In this document: piece by piece, positions 624 to 5,284 of the stretch
Numbering within the stretch: position 1 is the first letter of the stretch
Layout of the letters: every line of letters starts with the position of its first letter
Source: a virus
DNA: 5,284 nt
Reading direction: 5' to 3' (one strand)
IMG/VR virus record: IMGVR_UViG_3300045988_004808
Location: 1 to 5,284 of that record
Translations under genes and position numbers: made by a program
The notes under the pieces: model-generated
Told to the model about the DNA's origin: nothing
What the model saw: only the letters and a program-made list of their open reading frames with translations
The model's database searches: none

Positions 624-629
624 CCAAAC

Positions 630-680
630 AAAGGGGGCACGCCCCCTTTACCCCCTTGTAAAAGGGGGGTTTTATTTATA
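630..680 (+). terminator. Two tandem GC-rich stem-loops immediately after the rep stop codon, the second followed by a T-rich run (rho-independent terminator-like)
   Basis: In the first, AAAGGGGGC (630-638) pairs with GCCCCCTTT (641-649). In the second, CCCCCTT (651-657) pairs with AAGGGGG (662-668) across a GTAA loop, followed by GTTTTATTTATA. Confidence 0.6.
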
Positions 681-926: not shown

Positions 927-1184
927 ATGAAAACCAACATCTACGCATTCAAAGACACCAAAATAGGCTTTATGCAGCCATTCCTCCAGCAGAACGAAGC
1001 AGTAGCCATGCGAACACTCAAAATGGCCGTGAACGATGAACACAGCCAAATCCGAAACATGGCCGAAGATATCCAATTGTACCAGCTCGGAACCTTTGAC
1101 GATGATACCGGGGAAATCGTACCGGAGGTAAAATTTATCGCAAACGCAATCGACCATAAGGAGGTGAATACCAATAGAGATTAA
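927..1184 (+). CDS. Hypothetical protein, 85 aa. Possibly a VP5-like nonstructural protein, but the function is not recognised.
   Basis: SD AAAGGAG at 912-918 sits 8 nt before ATG 927. It is on the coding strand within the gene string. Its 3' end contains the very strong SD AAGGAGGTG (1158-1166) that serves the next ORF. Confidence 0.55.
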   Translation: MKTNIYAFKDTKIGFMQPFLQQNEAVAMRTLKMAVNDEHSQIRNMAEDIQLYQLGTFDDDTGEIVPEVKFIANAIDHKEVNTNRD

Positions 1185-1347
1185 CGAAATCGTAAACATA
1201 ATCGGAACAATCGGCTTTCCTTGCGTAATTGCACTGCTGCTCCTAAAAAACAATCAGGAGCAAATAGACGTAATCAGAGAGAACACAAAGGTAATTCAGG
1301 CACTGGCCGACCGTATCGACAATGTACTTTCAAAAGGGGATGATTAA
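1168..1347 (+). CDS. Holin-like small membrane protein (BhlA/UviB-like architecture). The frame is open from 1168 but has no ATG/GTG/TTG; candidate starts are ATA 1174 and ATT 1180. Translation: ..INEIVNIIGTIGFPCVIALLLLKNNQEQIDVIRENTKVIQALADRIDNVLSKGDD.
   Basis: It has one roughly 20-residue hydrophobic segment followed by a charged C-terminal tail. A perfect SD AAGGAGGTG (1158-1166) lies 9 nt upstream of ATA 1174. The stop TAA 1345-1347 abuts the GTG start of the amidase, a holin-endolysin arrangement. Confidence 0.45.
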   Translation: MPIEINEIVNIIGTIGFPCVIALLLLKNNQEQIDVIRENTKVIQALADRIDNVLSKGDD

Positions 1348-1956
1348 GTGAGACTTCACACACAGACAGCATACAAAAACGCTTGTTACCAAGAAGGGCA
1401 AAAGATGAAACCGAAAGGCATCATGATACATTCGACAGGGGCAAACAATCCGAACCTGAGGCGGTATGTAGGACCAGATGATGGCATACTTGGAAAGAAC
1501 ATCTACAACAACCATTGGAACAACGCCTATCCGGGCGGGAAAGCAATCTGCTGCCATGCATTCATCGGCAAAGACAAAAACGGAGAAGTCCGAACTTATC
1601 AAATTCTGCCGTGGAGCATGGTAGGCTGGCACTGTGGAGGTAAGGCAAACAAAACCCATATTGGAATTGAAATCTGCGAAGACACCACAAGCAACGAACA
1701 CTTCAAAGAAACATTCCGAGAAGCCGTAGAAGTAGCAGCTTATCTATGCAAACTATATCAACTCCAACCGAAAAACATTATCAGCCACAAAGAAGGAAAC
1801 GCAAAAGGCCTAGCAAGTAACCATGGAGATCCGGAACATTGGTGGAAAAATTACGGTATCGACATGAGCGATTTCCGAAACGAAGTAGCAAAAGAACTTG
1901 ACAGGCAAAAAGTATACCATGCAATGATTTATGACACGAAAGGAGCAAACGAATGA
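1348..1956 (+). CDS. N-acetylmuramoyl-L-alanine amidase, amidase_2/PGRP family (PlyG/XlyA/CwlA-like endolysin). Catalytic domain only, 202 aa.
   Basis: Motifs MKPKGIMIHSTGAN, GWHCGG, HIGIEICE and IISHKEG...HGDPEHW line up with YITVHNTAN, GWHAG, SIGIEICEN and VVPHKYWSGKECP of Bacillus XlyA. The N-terminal region resembles PlyG (KYGTKCPYTMKPKYITVHNT); both comparator sequences are recalled from memory. SD AAAGGGGA sits 8 nt before GTG 1348. The stop overlaps the VP3 start as ATGA. Confidence 0.8.
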   Translation: MRLHTQTAYKNACYQEGQKMKPKGIMIHSTGANNPNLRRYVGPDDGILGKNIYNNHWNNAYPGGKAICCHAFIGKDKNGEVRTYQILPWSMVGWHCGGKANKTHIGIEICEDTTSNEHFKETFREAVEVAAYLCKLYQLQPKNIISHKEGNAKGLASNHGDPEHWWKNYGIDMSDFRNEVAKELDRQKVYHAMIYDTKGANE

Positions 1957-2450
1957 ACTTTTATAGCCGACTTAATCCAGCGCCGGTAATCGAAGCGCCG
2001 GCAGGAAGCAAAGAAGCAACAACCTACCAAACACAGATTGACGAGAACGGACACAAAGTAACAGTGCCAATCGGAAAGACAAACATCTATGACCGCATTC
2101 AAAGCAGCCTAGAGGAGACCAAAATTGAGAACATCATCAAACGGTTTACCGAAGGTGATATCTCGGCATTCAGGCAGGGCGAGCCACTGTATGCAGACAT
2201 GACCGAAGCACCACGAACACTGATGGAAGCACAAAACATGATTATCCGCATTACGAATGAATTTAACAATCTGCCGGTAGAGGTAAGGGCTAAATTTGAC
2301 CACAGTCCAGAAAAATACGTTGCACTGTACGGCGGCGAAGAGTGGGCAAAGGCTATAGGCTATGAAACCAAAAAAGCCGACACAGGCGAAATTCAGGGCG
2401 CTGGTGACGTAAGCACCGAACCTATTCCGAAACAGGAGGAGAAAGCATGA
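1953..2450 (+). CDS. VP3: Internal scaffolding protein VP3 (gokushovirus-type), 165 aa
   Basis: SD AGGAG at 1941-1945 sits 7 nt before ATG 1953. The motif MEAQNMIIRITNEFNNLPVEVRAKFDHSPEKYV matches the conserved VP3 scaffold signature (A-Q-x-I-I-R..F..LP..VR..F). It lies directly upstream of VP1 with ATGA start/stop coupling. Confidence 0.78.
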   Translation: MNFYSRLNPAPVIEAPAGSKEATTYQTQIDENGHKVTVPIGKTNIYDRIQSSLEETKIENIIKRFTEGDISAFRQGEPLYADMTEAPRTLMEAQNMIIRITNEFNNLPVEVRAKFDHSPEKYVALYGGEEWAKAIGYETKKADTGEIQGAGDVSTEPIPKQEEKA

Positions 2451-4105
2451 ACAGAAACACCGAAAGCCATTTTTCAGTAAATCCGATTAACCTTGATATC
2501 CAGCGAAGCAAATTTGTAAGACCGAGTACGCATAAGACCACATTCAACGCCGGAAACCTCATTCCGATTTATGTTGATGAAGTACTACCGGGCGATACCT
2601 TCAAGATGAATATGAGCAGCGTCATCCGTATGAGTACGCCTATATATCCTGTAATGGATAACGCCAACATGGATGTATATTTCTTCTTTGTACCTAACCG
2701 ACTTGTGTGGTATCACTGGAAAGAGTTTTTTGGAGAAAACAATACCACGCACTGGGAGCAACCGGTAGAATACGAAGCACCGCAAATCACCGCACCGGCG
2801 GGCGGATGGGCAAAAGGAACTATTGCCGACTATATGGGCATTCCAACGAAAATCGAAAACATCAGCGTACAGGCACTGCCATTCCGAGCATACTGTAAAA
2901 TCTGGAATGACTGGTTCAGAGACCAAAACTTGAAAGACCCTGCCATGATATCCATGGATGAAACGACAACGGCAGGAGCAAACACAGGAGACTATGTAAC
3001 CAATGCAGAGAAAGGAGCACTTCCTCTCAAAGTCGCAAAATACCATGACTATTTCACTGCAGCACTACCTGAACCTCAGAAAGGACCGGAAGTAACTATC
3101 GGCGCAGTAAACGGATATATACCGATTGTTACAAGGAACGAATTGGCAACAAATAGCACGACCAATGCACTAAGATGGAATGTAAACGGAAACACACCGA
3201 GTGCCCTATTAGTAGGCATAGCAACAGGAAAGAACACAGACGGAACGTCTAATACATTCACACCAAACACCGGCGGAAACGCGACATTTACAGGAAACAT
3301 TACACCGGCAAACCTGTGGGCAGAAATGGGTAACAATAGTGCGACCAGCATTAACGCTCTGCGACAGGCATTCGCAATTCAGAGATTGTACGAGAAAAAC
3401 GCACGCGGCGGTACTCGTTATATCGAGATTATCAAAGCACACTTCGGAGTACAGTCACCGGATGCCAGACAGCAGCGAAGCGAATATCTGGGCGGCACTC
3501 GAGTACCTATCAACATGGATCAGGTGGTACAGACCTCCAATTCCGGAGACGGTATCACACCGCAGGGCAACACGGCAGCATACTCTCTGACAGCATTCAA
3601 TGAAAGCATGTTCACCAAATCGTTTACCGAACACGGTTACATCATCGGACTGGCATGTATCAGAACTGAGCACACCTACCAACAGGGAATTGAGCGGTTT
3701 TGGAGCAGAAAGAAGATGCTGGACTACTACTTCCCAACTTTGGCAAACCTCGGAGAGCAAGCAATCCTGAACAAAGAAATCTATGCACAGGGCAACGCAA
3801 CGGACGATGAAGCATTCGGCTATCAGGAAGCATGGGCAGAATATCGGTACAAGCCGAGCAGAGTATCCGGAGCAATGCGAAGCAACTATCAGGCAACATT
3901 GGATGCATGGCACTATGCAGACAAGTACACCAAACAGCCTATCCTGTCGAGTGAATGGATTGACGAAACAAGCGCGAACATCGATAGAACACTTGCCGTT
4001 CAGAGCACAACCGAAGACCAATTTATTGCAGACTTTTATTTTGCATGTGAAGCAACAAGGCCTATGCCTCTGTATAGCATTCCCGGCCTGATTGACCATC
4101 ACTAA
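2447..4105 (+). CDS. VP1: Major capsid protein VP1 (microvirus F-protein fold, gokushovirus-type), 552 aa
   Basis: The N-terminal signature is IQRSKFVRPSTHKTTFNAGNLIPIYVDEVLPGDTF. Further motifs are MSTPIYPVMDN, FFFVPNRLVW, APAGGW, DYMGIPTK and LRQAFAIQRLYE...RYIEIIKAHFGV, which is a classic Microviridae VP1. SD AGGAGGAG lies upstream. Confidence 0.95.
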   Translation: MNRNTESHFSVNPINLDIQRSKFVRPSTHKTTFNAGNLIPIYVDEVLPGDTFKMNMSSVIRMSTPIYPVMDNANMDVYFFFVPNRLVWYHWKEFFGENNTTHWEQPVEYEAPQITAPAGGWAKGTIADYMGIPTKIENISVQALPFRAYCKIWNDWFRDQNLKDPAMISMDETTTAGANTGDYVTNAEKGALPLKVAKYHDYFTAALPEPQKGPEVTIGAVNGYIPIVTRNELATNSTTNALRWNVNGNTPSALLVGIATGKNTDGTSNTFTPNTGGNATFTGNITPANLWAEMGNNSATSINALRQAFAIQRLYEKNARGGTRYIEIIKAHFGVQSPDARQQRSEYLGGTRVPINMDQVVQTSNSGDGITPQGNTAAYSLTAFNESMFTKSFTEHGYIIGLACIRTEHTYQQGIERFWSRKKMLDYYFPTLANLGEQAILNKEIYAQGNATDDEAFGYQEAWAEYRYKPSRVSGAMRSNYQATLDAWHYADKYTKQPILSSEWIDETSANIDRTLAVQSTTEDQFIADFYFACEATRPMPLYSIPGLIDHH

Positions 4106-4119
4106 AGGAGGGGCAAACA

Positions 4120-4731
4120 ATGGCAGGAAGTAGAGGCCGAGGCATATTTGGAAGAGATAAAAATCTCGTTCAAGCAGGACAAAAAGCAGTAGATGCAGCT
4201 ATAAGCGGATTAGGTCTTACACTCAATCCAATTGCTAACACCACAGCAACAGCAGAAGCGGCATTCAACAAAAGCCAAATGAGCGCAGAACAGGCAATGG
4301 CCTTCGAAGCCAGCCAAGCAGCACAACAGATGGCATTCCAACGAGAAATGCTCCAAAATCAAATGCGGTTTAACAGCGCAGAAGCAGAAACCAACAGAGC
4401 ATGGCAAAGGGAAATGAGGCAAACAGCCTACCAAGACACAGTAAAAGACATGGTAAAAGCCGGAATAAATCCAATACTGGCAGCACAGTTAGGAGCAACC
4501 GGCCTATCAGGTGGAAGCACTGCAAGCGCAGGACTTGCAAGCGGAGCAATGGCCAGCGGCCACACAGCACAAATGCAACAGCAAACCGTACCGGATATCA
4601 TCCGAAACATCGGATATGCCATCACAACGGCAAAAGAAGCGGCAAAAGGACTGGAGGGATACACGAAAGAACTGGCCAATGAAAAACTCGACCGCTACGC
4701 AAAACAGGCAATCGGAAGTGTAAAAGGCTAA
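4120..4731 (+). CDS. VP2: Minor capsid / DNA pilot protein VP2, 203 aa
   Basis: SD AAAGGAGGGG sits 6-7 nt before ATG 4120. The protein is Gly/Ala/Gln-rich with the conserved gokushovirus VP2 core FNSAEAETNRAWQREMRQTAYQDTVKDMVKAGINPILAAQ. It lies immediately downstream of VP1. Confidence 0.82.
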   Translation: MAGSRGRGIFGRDKNLVQAGQKAVDAAISGLGLTLNPIANTTATAEAAFNKSQMSAEQAMAFEASQAAQQMAFQREMLQNQMRFNSAEAETNRAWQREMRQTAYQDTVKDMVKAGINPILAAQLGATGLSGGSTASAGLASGAMASGHTAQMQQQTVPDIIRNIGYAITTAKEAAKGLEGYTKELANEKLDRYAKQAIGSVKG

Positions 4732-4738
4732 ATTTTGT

Positions 4739-4800
4739 GTCAGTCAGCCCCATTGTAACAAGGTGACAATGGGGCTGACTGACCGGCCGCACAGCGGCCG
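4739..4800 (+). promoter_or_regulatory. A perfect 17-bp inverted repeat (GTCAGTCAGCCCCATTG 4739-4755 pairing with CAATGGGGCTGACTGAC 4767-4783, 11-nt loop) is followed by a 7-bp GC hairpin (CGGCCGC 4784-4790, GCGGCCG 4794-4800). There is no U-tract.
   Basis: Read directly from the sequence. Both hairpins sit between the VP2 stop and the rep SD. They are candidates for a complementary-strand priming site on the ssDNA, or a regulatory structure for rep. Confidence 0.55.
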
Positions 4801-4820
4801 AGGGAAAGGAGGTGAAAACT

Positions 4821-5284
4821 TTGCCATGTTATCATCCTTTGCGGCGATGGTGGTGGGGTGAGACCGACCAAGACGGAAAGCAAATCAACGCCAAAATCAC
4901 AAGCTGGGAAGTTGATACTCTATTCGAAAGGCCGATAGGCTTTGGAAAAATCCGGGGGCAATGGTCATCGGAAGAATGGAGCGAGGAAATACCATGCGGC
5001 AAATGCATAGGATGCCGACTTGAGTATAGTAGACAATGGGCGAACCGCTGTATGCTGGAAGCACAAGAATGGCCGGAAAACTGGTTTATCACTCTGACAT
5101 ACGATGATGCACATTTACCATTCAAAGAACGCATCGACACCAAGACCGGCGAAATGATGGAAGAATTCACACCGTCATTATATCCGCCGGACATTACAAA
5201 GTTTATGAAAGACCTCCGGCGGTACTGGAAATACCATTACGGAGAACAGAACATAAGATTTTACGCTTGCGGCGAGTACGGAAG
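4821..5284 (+). CDS. VP4: Replication initiation protein (Rep/VP4), N-terminal part. It starts at TTG 4821 (MPCYHPLRRWWWGETDQ...) and continues through the window end and across the circular junction into 3..623.
   Basis: SD GGAAAGGAGGTG at 4803-4814 sits 8 nt before TTG 4821. The N-terminus MPCYHPL is the canonical Microviridae Rep start. FITLTYDD is HUH motif 1. The frame runs open to 5284 and matches the frame at window positions 3-623 after subtracting 5229. Confidence 0.85.
   Translation, partial: MPCYHPLRRWWWGETDQDGKQINAKITSWEVDTLFERPIGFGKIRGQWSSEEWSEEIPCGKCIGCRLEYSRQWANRCMLEAQEWPENWFITLTYDDAHLPFKERIDTKTGEMMEEFTPSLYPPDITKFMKDLRRYWKYHYGEQNIRFYACGEYG
5230..5284. repeat. Terminal redundancy right copy, identical to 1-55
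   Basis: A 55-nt exact match with the window start. Confidence 0.9.

What the first reader, a model, noticed from the sequence alone, without database searches (positions are those of the whole stretch)
1158..1956. Firmicutes-type holin-endolysin lysis cassette inside a gokushovirus-like microvirus
A small single-TM protein is open in frame at 1168-1347. It has a TM segment followed by a charged helical tail (KNNQEQIDVIRENTKVIQALADRIDNV), as in BhlA/UviB class holins. Its stop abuts the GTG start of an amidase_2 N-acetylmuramoyl-L-alanine amidase whose motifs match Bacillus XlyA and gamma-phage PlyG: IGIEICE, GWHxG, and the MKPKxIxxHxT N-terminal strand. Characterised Microviridae lyse either by a single-gene inhibitor of MraY (phiX174 E) or have no identified lysis genes (Gokushovirinae). 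A canonical two-component Gram-positive-style lysis module between the J/ORF8-like gene and VP3 therefore looks like a horizontally acquired system that I do not recognise as described for this virus family. It would change how this phage exits its host.
Basis: partly seen in the sequence, partly recalled or inferred. Interest (0 to 1): 0.88.

Follow-up and report, generated by a model that had tools for sequence, protein, structure and literature searches.

The report
Holin-like gene plus amidase in microvirus
This small gut ssDNA phage carries a real cell-wall amidase next to a tiny membrane protein that is probably its holin and is also found in phi29-like tailed phages, but wall-degrading lysis genes in such phages were already known, so it is a moderate rather than radical finding.

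Summary
Window 1174-1347 encodes a conserved 57-aa protein: one hydrophobic helix plus a polar helical tail (dN/dS 0.07). It abuts a 202-aa Amidase_2 at 1348-1956 (Pfam E 8e-18; fold closest to AmiA/AmiE, PlyL, XlyA, PlyG, LytA). The genome is a complete 5,229-nt gokushovirus-like microvirus.

Three corrections:
- The small ORF has no ATG/GTG/TTG. It starts at ATA 1174 (ATA in 12 of 16 copies, ATG in 4).
- It is not a Pfam BhlA holin. It belongs to phrog_4898, the "YvrJ-like" family that includes the annotated, untested 57-aa holin of C. perfringens podovirus phi24R.
- The cassette lies between VP5 and VP3.

The novelty claim is overstated. Horizontally acquired wall hydrolases in gut gokushoviruses, and possible Gram-positive hosts, were published in 2012 and 2022. 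At least nine GenBank microviruses carry this same pair, unannotated.

Apparently new:
- A holin-like partner for a microvirus lysin.
- 72-86% identical copies of it in ~15-kb phi29-like gut podoviruses.
- The same small-protein family abutting a different fold (Amidase_3) in other microvirus lineages.

Holin activity and host are inferred, not shown. Verdict: new variant of a known kind.

The parts
1158..1166 (+). Shine-Dalgarno site AAGGAGGTG for the small ORF, lying inside the 3' end of VP5
   Evidence: Read from the sequence. It is conserved 9-10 nt upstream of the start-position codon in relatives and in the podovirus copies.
1174..1347 (+). 57-aa holin-like membrane protein of the phrog_4898 / YvrJ-like family. 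ATA start at 1174, TAA stop at 1345-1347. It overlaps the VP5 stop (1182-1184) by 11 nt.
   Evidence: Frame and start. dN/dS 0.07. phrog_4898 E 9e-6. hhalign against the phi24R holin group gives prob 97.2%, E 4.6e-11. It is the only strongly hydrophobic protein in the genome.
1180..1245 (+). Predicted transmembrane helix, residues 3-24 (INEIVNIIGTIGFPCVIALLLL), with the family-invariant G14 and P16 of the GFP motif
   Evidence: Kyte-Doolittle 19-mer maximum 2.45. AlphaFold helix 3-24. G14 and P16 are invariant and F15 nearly invariant.
1255..1335 (+). Polar amphipathic tail helix, residues 28-54. IRENTKVIQALADRID is identical in the window-clade microvirus copies and the closest podovirus copies examined.
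   Evidence: AlphaFold helix 28-54. Alignments. Heptad-like hydrophobic stripe.
1333..1340 (+). Shine-Dalgarno-like AAAGGGGA for the amidase, inside the 3' end of the small ORF
   Evidence: Read from the sequence. It lies 7 nt upstream of GTG 1348.
1348..1956 (+). 202-aa N-acetylmuramoyl-L-alanine amidase: Amidase_2 catalytic domain only, with no signal peptide and no wall-binding domain. GTG start immediately follows the small ORF's stop. The TGA stop overlaps the VP3 ATG (ATGA at 1953-1956).
   Evidence: Pfam PF01510 E 8.3e-18. phrog_15001 E 4e-54. PDB matches PlyL, XlyA, PlyG. Foldseek hits AmiA, AmiE, PlyL, LytA. dN/dS 0.10. Maximum hydropathy 0.47.
1429..1431 (+). Codon for His28, predicted Zn ligand (aligns with PlyL His29)
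   Evidence: phmmer alignment to 1yb0. Invariant in 40 homologs. Residue identity checked.
1669..1671 (+). Codon for Glu108, predicted catalytic Glu in IGIEICE (aligns with PlyL Glu90, the residue mutated in 2ar3)
   Evidence: Alignments to 1yb0 and 2ar3. Invariant.
1786..1830 (+). Codons for His147 through Asp161 (ISHKEGNAKGLASNHGD). His147 is the predicted second Zn ligand. The third ligand is probably Asp161 or His159.
   Evidence: His147 aligns with the PlyL His in 'RTHQ'. H147 and H159 are invariant and D161 is at least 90% conserved. The third-ligand assignment is an inference.

Best explanation
Window 1174-1956 is a two-gene lysis module in a gokushovirus-like microvirus.

The downstream gene makes a cytoplasmic, signal-less Amidase_2 enzyme. 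This enzyme cuts the bond between N-acetylmuramic acid and L-alanine in peptidoglycan.

The upstream gene makes a 57-aa protein with one transmembrane helix and a conserved amphipathic tail. It most likely oligomerises in the cytoplasmic membrane late in infection and permeabilises it. That lets the amidase reach the wall and fixes the time of lysis, which is holin function.

Both genes sit in the single rightward operon, each with its own GGAGG ribosome-binding site. The small gene usually starts with the near-cognate codon ATA. This probably keeps its output low, or couples it to termination of VP5 8 nt downstream.

Both genes were acquired horizontally, and from different sources. The amidase domain came from Bacillota or their tailed phages and lost the wall-binding domain. 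The small gene is shared with phi29-like gut podoviruses. The host is therefore most likely a monoderm member of Bacillota, probably Clostridia.

Shown: gene reality, protein folds and family membership, conservation, the cross-phage distribution, and the recurrence of the pairing.

Inferred: holin activity, membrane topology, the effect of the ATA start, the direction of transfer, and the host.
For: 1. Enzyme identity. Pfam, PHROG, PDB and fold matches all give Amidase_2, and the catalytic residues are invariant.
2. Need for a partner. The amidase has no hydrophobic N-terminus (KD maximum 0.47). It needs membrane disruption to reach the wall.
3. The small protein is the only candidate. It is the only strongly hydrophobic protein in this genome. 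It is also the only small protein with a strongly hydrophobic segment in the phi29-like podoviruses L013 and L016, whose GH25 lysin likewise lacks a signal sequence.
4. Family. It hits phrog_4898 'holin' at E 9e-6. An independent profile-profile match to the annotated 57-aa holin gp15 of C. perfringens phage phi24R gives prob 97.2% and E 4.6e-11. That holin abuts the phi24R Amidase_3 endolysin.
5. Recurrent pairing. Homologous small ORFs end 1-2 nt from an Amidase_3 gene in MG945295, MG945503 and MG945658. The VP1 of MG945295 is only 53% identical to the window's. One membrane-protein family is thus paired with two unrelated amidase folds.
6. Selection. dN/dS is 0.07 for the small gene and 0.10 for the amidase across genomes whose synonymous sites are nearly saturated.
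7. Foreign origin.
   - DNA similarity to the podoviruses covers only window 1156-1347.
   - The nearest non-microvirus amidases (about 60% identity) are longer Clostridia, Bacilli or Heliusvirales-phage proteins with SPOR, LysM, SH3 or PG_binding domains.
   - Related gokushoviruses with VP1 53-56% identical lack both genes. One carries an M15_3 peptidase in the same accessory region instead.
8. Host-type hints. All eight genes have strong GGAGG sites. No spanin-like ORF exists.
Against: - No experiment supports holin activity for any member of phrog_4898 or YvrJ-like proteins that I could find. The phi24R 'holin' label appears to be positional.
- Pfam membership in YvrJ is below the gathering threshold, and bacterial YvrJ has no known function.
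- In the gut podoviruses the gene is not next to the lysin. It lies between the packaging ATPase and the scaffold gene.
- CA82-type microviruses carry a homolog but no recognisable wall hydrolase. The protein can therefore exist without a phage lysin.
- The extreme conservation of the tail (IRENTKVIQALADRID) is unusual for holins and could mean a specific binding partner.
- An ATA start would be very weak.
- No host is identified. There is no prophage and no copy in 185,579 reference genomes.
Confidence: 0.68

Rival explanations
1. The amidase is the lysis enzyme, but the small membrane protein is not a holin. It could be a membrane-anchored factor that binds a specific host or phage partner through its conserved tail. 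Possible roles are superinfection exclusion, control of a host autolysin or division protein, or a membrane assembly or replication site. The amidase would then escape by another route.
For: - The tail is identical in the window-clade microvirus copies and the closest podovirus copies examined.
- In the podoviruses the gene sits among packaging and capsid genes, 3.7 kb from the GH25 lysin.
- CA82-type microviruses have it without a lysin.
- The nearest Pfam family, YvrJ, is a bacterial protein of unknown function.
Against: - It directly abuts amidases of two different folds in at least three microvirus groups and in phi24R.
- No other membrane protein is available to release signal-less lysins in any of these small genomes.
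- It belongs to the PHROG family annotated as holin.
Confidence: 0.17
2. The small protein is itself the primary lysis effector, a stand-alone lysis protein. It collapses the membrane potential, or targets a host wall-synthesis or autolysin regulator, so that host autolysins do the work. The amidase is a later accessory that speeds wall breakdown.
For: - CA82-type microviruses carry only the small protein.
- Small genomes favour single-gene lysis, as with phiX174 E (Roux 2012, PMC3394797, discussion).
- From my own knowledge, collapse of the proton-motive force activates autolysins in Bacillus.
- The tail is strongly conserved.
Against: - There is no experimental support.
- In the window clade the amidase is under equally strong selection (dN/dS 0.10).
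- All 16 window-clade copies examined keep both genes.
- CA82 may have an unrecognised lysin.
Confidence: 0.1
3. The amidase works at entry rather than exit. It would be a virion-associated or early enzyme that opens the thick wall for DNA delivery. The small ORF would be unrelated or a membrane tether for it.
For: - Phages of Gram-positive hosts often carry entry hydrolases, such as phi29 gp13 (my own knowledge) and the phi24R gp12 peptidase with lysozyme and tail domains.
- The microviral enzyme has lost its wall-binding domain.
Against: - From my own knowledge, a T=1 microvirus capsid has no known place for a 23-kDa enzyme.
- The enzyme has no fusion to, or similarity with, VP2 or other structural proteins.
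- Its closest relatives are annotated endolysins located beside holins.
- Pairing with a membrane protein fits exit.
Confidence: 0.05

Closest known systems
Holin gp15 plus Amidase_3 endolysin gp14 of Clostridium perfringens podovirus phi24R (Guelinviridae) and relatives (CPS1, CPD2)
   Same: - The small protein is 57 aa, with the same N-terminal 'EI(I/V)N(I/L)I..(I/V)GFP' transmembrane helix and a polar helical tail.
- It belongs to the same PHROG (phrog_4898) and gives hhalign prob 97%.
- It directly abuts a short, single-domain muramoyl-alanine amidase.
   Different: - Identity is only about 29%.
- Gene order is endolysin then holin in phi24R, and holin then endolysin here.
- The enzyme fold is Amidase_3 there and Amidase_2 here.
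- The carrier is a dsDNA protein-primed podovirus rather than an ssDNA microvirus.
- The phi24R holin label is itself untested.
Horizontally acquired Peptidase_M15_3 'possible endolysin' of human-gut Gokushovirinae and Alpavirinae (Roux et al. 2012, PMC3394797), and the peptidase/amidase lysis accessory genes of microvirus families (Kirchberger et al. 2022, PMC9239249)
   Same: - The carrier is the same kind of virus.
- The idea is the same: a wall hydrolase captured by horizontal transfer into the accessory region and proposed to act in lysis.
- The Firmicutes affinity is the same.
- A sister gokushovirus, KT264800, carries an M15_3 gene in the equivalent region.
   Different: - The enzyme family differs: Amidase_2 here, an M15 peptidase there.
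- Here a conserved membrane-protein partner is present. The papers describe no holin. Roux et al. noted only unknown adjacent ORFs with no similarity to anything.
Bacillus prophage and phage Amidase_2 endolysins PlyL, PlyG and XlyA, and the staphylococcal and pneumococcal autolysin amidases AmiA, AmiE and LytA
   Same: - The catalytic fold is the same, with His/His plus acidic or Cys zinc site positions and a catalytic Glu in the I-E-I-C motif.
   Different: - Those enzymes carry C-terminal wall-binding domains. The microviral enzyme is the catalytic domain plus a short helix (202 aa).
- Sequence identity is only about 20%.
- The closest sequence relatives (about 60%) are uncharacterised Clostridia and Heliusvirales-phage enzymes.
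BhlA/UviB holin family (Pfam PF10960)
   Same: - The overall architecture is the same: about 60-70 aa, one N-terminal transmembrane helix and a charged helical tail.
- Some family members give weak hits to phrog_2429, 'bacteriocin production or immunity', at E 0.008-0.03.
   Different: - There is no significant Pfam match: 1 of 33 members at E 0.055.
- This is not the family the sequence belongs to.
phiX174 protein E single-gene lysis
   Same: - It is a small membrane protein of a microvirus that is involved in host lysis.
   Different: - E is overprinted in another gene, inhibits MraY, and needs no muralytic enzyme.
- Here the small gene has its own reading frame, apart from an 11-nt overlap with the 3' end of VP5, and is paired with a true peptidoglycan amidase.

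Membership tests
Amidase_2 (PF01510) N-acetylmuramoyl-L-alanine amidase / PGRP fold | Significant match to the family profile above the curated threshold | tested here: met
   65.4 bits against a cutoff of 26, E 8.3e-18, covering profile positions 2-129 of 131.
Amidase_2 (PF01510) N-acetylmuramoyl-L-alanine amidase / PGRP fold | Zinc-binding His, His and Cys/Asp, plus a catalytic Glu at the positions seen in PlyL, XlyA and LytA | tested here: met
   H28, E108 and H147 align with PlyL H29, E90 and H129 and are invariant in 40 homologs. H159 is invariant and D161 nearly so, as candidates for the third ligand. Which residue is the third ligand is not resolved.
Amidase_2 (PF01510) N-acetylmuramoyl-L-alanine amidase / PGRP fold | Predicted three-dimensional fold matches solved family members | tested here: met
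   Model pLDDT 84 and pTM 0.85. Foldseek prob 1.00 to AmiA, AmiE, PlyL, PlyP100, XlyA, PlyG and LytA, with TM up to 0.75 normalised to the target.
Amidase_2 (PF01510) N-acetylmuramoyl-L-alanine amidase / PGRP fold | Muralytic activity on peptidoglycan | not testable with these tools
   Needs a zymogram or turbidity assay.
Canonical holin (functional class) | Small phage protein with at least one transmembrane helix and a charged, hydrophilic C-terminus | tested here: met
   KD19 2.45 at residues 3-27. Predicted helices 3-24 and 28-54. The tail has 5 basic and 7 acidic residues.
Canonical holin (functional class) | Genetic linkage to an endolysin that lacks a secretion signal | tested here: met
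   The small ORF's stop at 1345-1347 abuts the amidase start at 1348, and the amidase has no hydrophobic N-terminus. The same linkage occurs with Amidase_3 in three other microviruses and in phi24R.
Canonical holin (functional class) | Forms lethal membrane lesions at a programmed time and is required for endolysin release | not testable with these tools
   I found no experimental data for any family member.
phrog_4898 ('holin') | Significant profile match over most of the protein | tested here: met
   E 9.2e-6, residues 6-53 against profile 2-54 of 62. Relatives score 6e-18 to 1e-7. hhalign to the phi24R group gives E 4.6e-11.
YvrJ family (PF12841) | Match above Pfam's gathering score (29.5 bits) | tested here: not met
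   The window protein scores 12 bits, E 0.16. 28 of 33 family members hit weakly (best E 5e-4) and none reaches the threshold. UniRef and NR nevertheless name relatives 'YvrJ family protein'.
   No hit for the window protein at E up to 1. 1 of 33 relatives hits at E 0.055.
Gokushovirus-like Microviridae | Circular genome of about 4.5-6 kb encoding VP1 (Phage_F), VP2 pilot, VP3 scaffold (Chlamy_scaf), VP4 Rep and VP5 (Phage_ORF5), all on one strand | tested here: met
   Pfam and PHROG hits for all five. 55-nt terminal redundancy gives a 5,229-nt circle, and Rep reads across the junction. 87-90% nucleotide identity to GenBank Gokushovirus and Microviridae records.

The most novel reading that the evidence does not exclude
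The YvrJ-like 57-aa membrane protein may be a mobile, cross-realm lysis effector of phages of gut Bacillota. It would be exchanged between phi29-like dsDNA podoviruses and several ssDNA microvirus lineages. It would suffice for lysis on its own, as in CA82-type microviruses that have no lysin. That would make it the missing lysis gene of the Gram-positive-infecting gokushovirus-like lineages. The amidases of two different folds would be recruited next to it independently. The near-cognate ATA start would act as a built-in lysis timer.
Probability: 0.2. Interest if true: 0.75.

Novelty: new variant of a known kind. Interest (0 to 1): 0.52.

Why it matters
How gokushovirus-like microviruses leave their hosts is largely unknown, and they are among the most abundant gut phages.

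- **A testable lysis system.** This module is a concrete two-gene system that can be synthesised and tested directly.
- **A host clue.** It points to monoderm Clostridia-type hosts for a lineage that has no cultured member.
- **An exception to genetic isolation.** Microviruses are described as genetically isolated, taking up only peptidases and methyltransferases (PMC9239249). Yet a 57-aa membrane-protein gene here is 72-86% identical to one in phi29-like podoviruses, which belong to a different viral realm.
- **A possible tool.** The minimal 202-aa amidase, with no wall-binding domain, may be useful as a small lysin against gut Clostridia.
- **An annotation gap.** The gene pair is present but unlabelled in public microvirus records. 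The ATA start makes standard gene callers miss the small gene.

Tried and rejected
- **BhlA membership.** Pfam Holin_BhlA was tested and rejected.
- **Transfer of the pair as one block from tailed phages.** The Heliusvirales phages with the closest amidases have unrelated 139-aa holins and longer enzymes, so this is rejected.
- **Prophage or host search.**
  - VP1 against 185,579 reference genomes found nothing.
  - The small-protein alignment A3 was too diverse to scan. The tighter alignment A4 found nothing.
  - An 11.3-kb NCBI contig that looked like a prophage is a tandem chimera of two microviruses.
- **IMG/VR amidase scan.** Only two contigs belong to this clade. The other 4-5-kb hits are tailed-phage fragments with no microvirus genes.
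- **Fold search of the two-helix small protein.** Uninformative; all E values were above 2.
- **NCBIfam.** No family matched either protein.
- **Literature.** Searches for a holin in Microviridae or for YvrJ function found nothing relevant.
- **Internal ATG 1405 as the amidase start.** Rejected, because the N-terminal 19 residues are conserved, and the Met is Ile in MG945319.
- **Composition.** The cassette shows no GC anomaly, so this gives no signal of recent transfer.
- **Promoter and terminator scan.** Counts were not clearly above shuffled controls.
Full report
**What the window is.**
The 5,284 bases are a complete circular genome of 5,229 nt with a 55-nt terminal redundancy (1-55 = 5230-5284). 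All genes are on the + strand:
- a 37-aa J/VP8-like gene at 792-905
- VP5/ORF5 at 927-1184 (PF20577)
- the small ORF at 1174-1347
- the amidase at 1348-1956
- VP3 scaffold at 1953-2450 (Chlamy_scaf)
- VP1 capsid at 2447-4105 (Phage_F, E 7e-177)
- VP2 pilot at 4120-4731
- VP4 Rep, from TTG 4821 across the junction to 623 (343 aa)

The genome is 87-90% identical at the nucleotide level to GenBank 'Gokushovirus WZ-2015a' KT264796 (human faeces) and to several 'Microviridae sp.' records from pig faeces.

**Check of the observation: the amidase.**
The product of 1348-1956 matches Pfam Amidase_2 (65 bits, E 8e-18) and PHROG endolysin families (best E 4e-54).
- An AlphaFold model (pLDDT 84, pTM 0.85) matches AmiA, AmiE, PlyL, PlyP100, XlyA, PlyG and LytA with probability 1.0.
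- H28, E108 and H147 align with the PlyL zinc ligands H29 and H129 and the catalytic E90. All three are invariant in 40 homologs. H159 is invariant and D161 nearly so, and these are the candidates for the third ligand.
- The GTG start is real. Relatives have ATG, GTG or TTG at the same position, the N-terminal 19 residues are conserved, and the internal Met is Ile in MG945319.
- The protein has no hydrophobic segment (KD19 maximum 0.47), so it has no signal or SAR sequence.
- Mean dN/dS is 0.10.

**Check of the observation: the small ORF.**
The frame is open from 1168, as stated, but contains no ATG, GTG or TTG.
- Alignment with relatives places the start at 1174. That codon is ATA in 12 of 16 microvirus copies and ATG in 4. 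An AAGGAGGTG site lies 9 nt upstream.
- The eight genomes used for the dN/dS calculation all have ATA and still give dN/dS 0.07, with synonymous sites near saturation. The ATA-start gene is therefore translated and under selection.
- It overlaps the end of VP5 by 11 nt.
- The product has the strongest hydrophobic segment in the genome (residues 3-27). It is predicted as two helices, 3-24 and 28-54.

**What family the small protein belongs to.**
It is not a Pfam BhlA holin. The window protein has no hit, and 1 of 33 relatives hits at E 0.055.
- It matches phrog_4898, annotated 'holin', at E 9e-6.
- It hits Pfam YvrJ weakly. 28 of 33 relatives hit, all below threshold.
- UniRef and one NR record use the name 'YvrJ family protein', including 'YvrJ protein family protein [Microviridae sp.]'.
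- phrog_4898 includes gp15 of C. perfringens podovirus phi24R. That protein is a 57-aa annotated holin that abuts the phi24R Amidase_3 endolysin.
- Alignments with no sequences in common give hhalign probability 97.2% (E 4.6e-11) between the window subfamily and the phi24R group.
- I found no experimental work on any member.

**Distribution: the unexpected part.**
A database search found 44 clusters closely related to the small protein, mostly on ~5-kb contigs. Three clusters (72-86% identical) lie on 14-15-kb contigs.
- Those longer contigs are phi29-like podoviruses. They carry Phi29_MCP, protein-primed DNA_pol_B_2, the gp16 ATPase, the phi29 connector, a Phi29 SSB and a GH25 lysin.
- In them the gene lies between the ATPase and the scaffold and capsid genes. 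It has an ATG start and a GGAGG site.
- DNA similarity to the window covers only 1156-1347, at 70-75% identity. Nothing else in the window matches them.
- In those podoviruses too, it is the only small protein with a strongly hydrophobic segment, and their GH25 lysin lacks a signal sequence.
- A profile search finds 1,517 clusters in the wider family.
- An NJ tree (low resolution for 57 residues) places the window-type microvirus copies in one clade with a podovirus copy as sister. The remaining podovirus diversity branches outside that clade. This fits one transfer, most simply from podovirus to microvirus.

**The pairing recurs in other microviruses.**
- MG945295 and MG945503 (VP1 53% identical to the window's) and MG945658 each have an unannotated 'GFP-motif' small TM ORF. 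In each it ends 1-2 nt before a 191-aa Amidase_3 gene (PF01520, E 1.5e-15).
- The turkey microvirus CA82 and its relatives carry a 78-aa homolog (p5) but no recognisable wall hydrolase.
- Gokushoviruses with VP1 53-56% identical to the window's have neither gene. One of them, KT264800, has a Peptidase_M15_3 gene in the same accessory region.

**Origin of the amidase.**
Within microviruses, identity runs from 70% to 94%.
- The next-best hits, at about 55-60%, are longer proteins (230-420 aa) from Clostridia and Bacilli. They also include 'Heliusvirales' tailed phages assigned to Oscillospirales, Evtepia, Blautia and Faecalimonas. These carry SPOR, LysM, SH3 or PG_binding domains.
- Those tailed phages have unrelated 139-aa holins.
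- The two genes of the microvirus module therefore have different sources and were assembled in the microvirus lineage.

**Mechanism.**
Best supported: a holin-endolysin pair.
1. The signal-less amidase accumulates in the cytoplasm.
2. The small protein inserts by its N-terminal helix and oligomerises, perhaps through the amphipathic tail, which has a heptad-like hydrophobic stripe.
3. It permeabilises the membrane, and the amidase then cleaves the MurNAc-L-Ala bonds.

No spanin-like gene exists, and all genes have strong GGAGG sites. Both points fit a monoderm Bacillota host. The ATA start probably throttles synthesis, or ties it to termination of VP5 8 nt downstream. That part is speculation. 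Holin activity, topology, host and direction of transfer are all inferences.

Weaknesses of this reading:
- The family's holin label is untested.
- The podovirus copy is not beside the lysin.
- CA82 has the gene alone.
- The tail is more conserved than is usual for holins.

These weaknesses support two rivals: a non-holin membrane factor, and a stand-alone lysis effector.

**Comparison with what is known.**
- Roux et al. 2012 (PMC3394797) reported M15_3 peptidases acquired horizontally by human-gut gokushoviruses and alpaviruses. They proposed these as endolysins, noted the Faecalibacterium affinity, and speculated about Gram-positive hosts.
- Kirchberger et al. 2022 (PMC9239249) describe peptidase/amidase lysis accessory genes in Families 2, 7 and 14, and occasionally elsewhere. 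They also describe a ~200-aa hypothetical protein acquired independently by Families 3, 4 and 7, and microvirus prophages in Erysipelatoclostridium and Mammaliicoccus.
- The claim that gokushoviruses have no identified lysis genes is therefore outdated. Horizontal capture of a wall hydrolase is a known kind of event.

I did not find the following in the searchable literature:
- a holin-type partner for a microvirus lysin
- its sharing with phi29-like podoviruses
- its pairing with two different amidase folds
- its ATA start

The library does not hold most subscription journals, so absence of a report is not proof.

**Verdict.**
Novelty: a new variant of a known kind. Interest is moderate (0.52). 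The cross-realm gene sharing and the testable lysis module are worth following up. The headline idea, a Gram-positive-style lysin acquired by a gut gokushovirus, is already in the literature.

Noticed in passing
window 1174-1176: The small ORF begins with the near-cognate codon ATA. This codon is ATA in 12 of 16 microvirus copies and ATG in 4. Standard gene callers therefore miss the gene in most genomes of this clade. In the VP5 frame, ATG at this position would change Arg to Gly near the C-terminus.
   Followed up: yes
window 4739-4783: A 21-nt inverted repeat, 95% complementary with a 3-nt loop (GTCAGTCAGCCCCATTGTAAC / GTGACAATGGGGCTGACTGAC), lies in the short gap between the VP2 stop (4731) and the Rep RBS and start (4806-4821). 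It could be a terminator or attenuator, or a replication or packaging signal.
   Followed up: partly
window 626-670 and 739-767: Two overlapping G/C-rich hairpins followed by a T-run lie just after the Rep stop (623); these look like a terminator. A TAGAAA-17-TATAAT promoter-like site lies upstream of the first gene (792). Together they would define a single genome-length operon. Neither count is clearly above shuffled controls.
   Followed up: partly
window 4821, 1348, 1174; all gene starts: Three of the eight genes use non-ATG starts: Rep TTG, amidase GTG and small ORF ATA. Every gene has a strong GGAGG-type Shine-Dalgarno site 6-10 nt upstream. This fits a Bacillota-like host and argues against a Bacteroidota-like one.
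   Followed up: partly
L001 (MG945347) about 1523-1702; L004 (MG945410) about 1754-1933: Two close relatives carry an extra 59-aa ORF (MKHTWYLITYEEAI...EEEEK) inserted between the small ORF and the amidase. It has no TM segment and no Pfam or PHROG family.
   Followed up: partly
L022 (MG945295) 1172-1351 and 1353-1928; L066 (MG945658) about 3225-3415 and 3417-3992: Other microvirus lineages carry an unannotated homolog of the small TM protein abutting an Amidase_3 enzyme. The VP1 of MG945295 is 53% identical to the window's. In MG945658 the amidase is mislabelled 'similar to VP3'.
   Followed up: yes
L021 (Microvirus CA82, NC_015785) 2980-3216; L064 2610-2846: CA82-type microviruses encode a 78-aa member of the same small-TM family (p5, 'hypothetical') but have no detectable peptidoglycan hydrolase. 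Their annotated 'putative cell lysis protein' p9 weakly matches the VP3 scaffold family instead.
   Followed up: partly
L013, L014, L016, L063 (gut metagenome contigs of about 14-15 kb): A diverse group of uncultured phi29-like podoviruses from human gut samples, including Hadza metagenomes, has a gene order unlike phi29: SSB, GH25 lysin, DNA polymerase, gp16 ATPase, small TM protein, scaffold, MCP. They carry the closest non-microvirus copies of the small protein.
   Followed up: partly
L069 (KT264800, mink gokushovirus) 4469-4867: An unannotated 132-aa Peptidase_M15_3 gene (E 4e-23) lies in the VP4-VP5 accessory region of a related gokushovirus, with no TM partner. This is the Roux 2012 type of putative lysin.
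   Followed up: yes
L023 (GCA_019971095.1 contig JAHXDW010001580.1, 11,339 nt): A contig binned into a bacterial MAG assembly is a head-to-tail chimera of two related but non-identical microvirus genomes. It is not a prophage, and it is a caution against host assignment from binning.
   Followed up: yes
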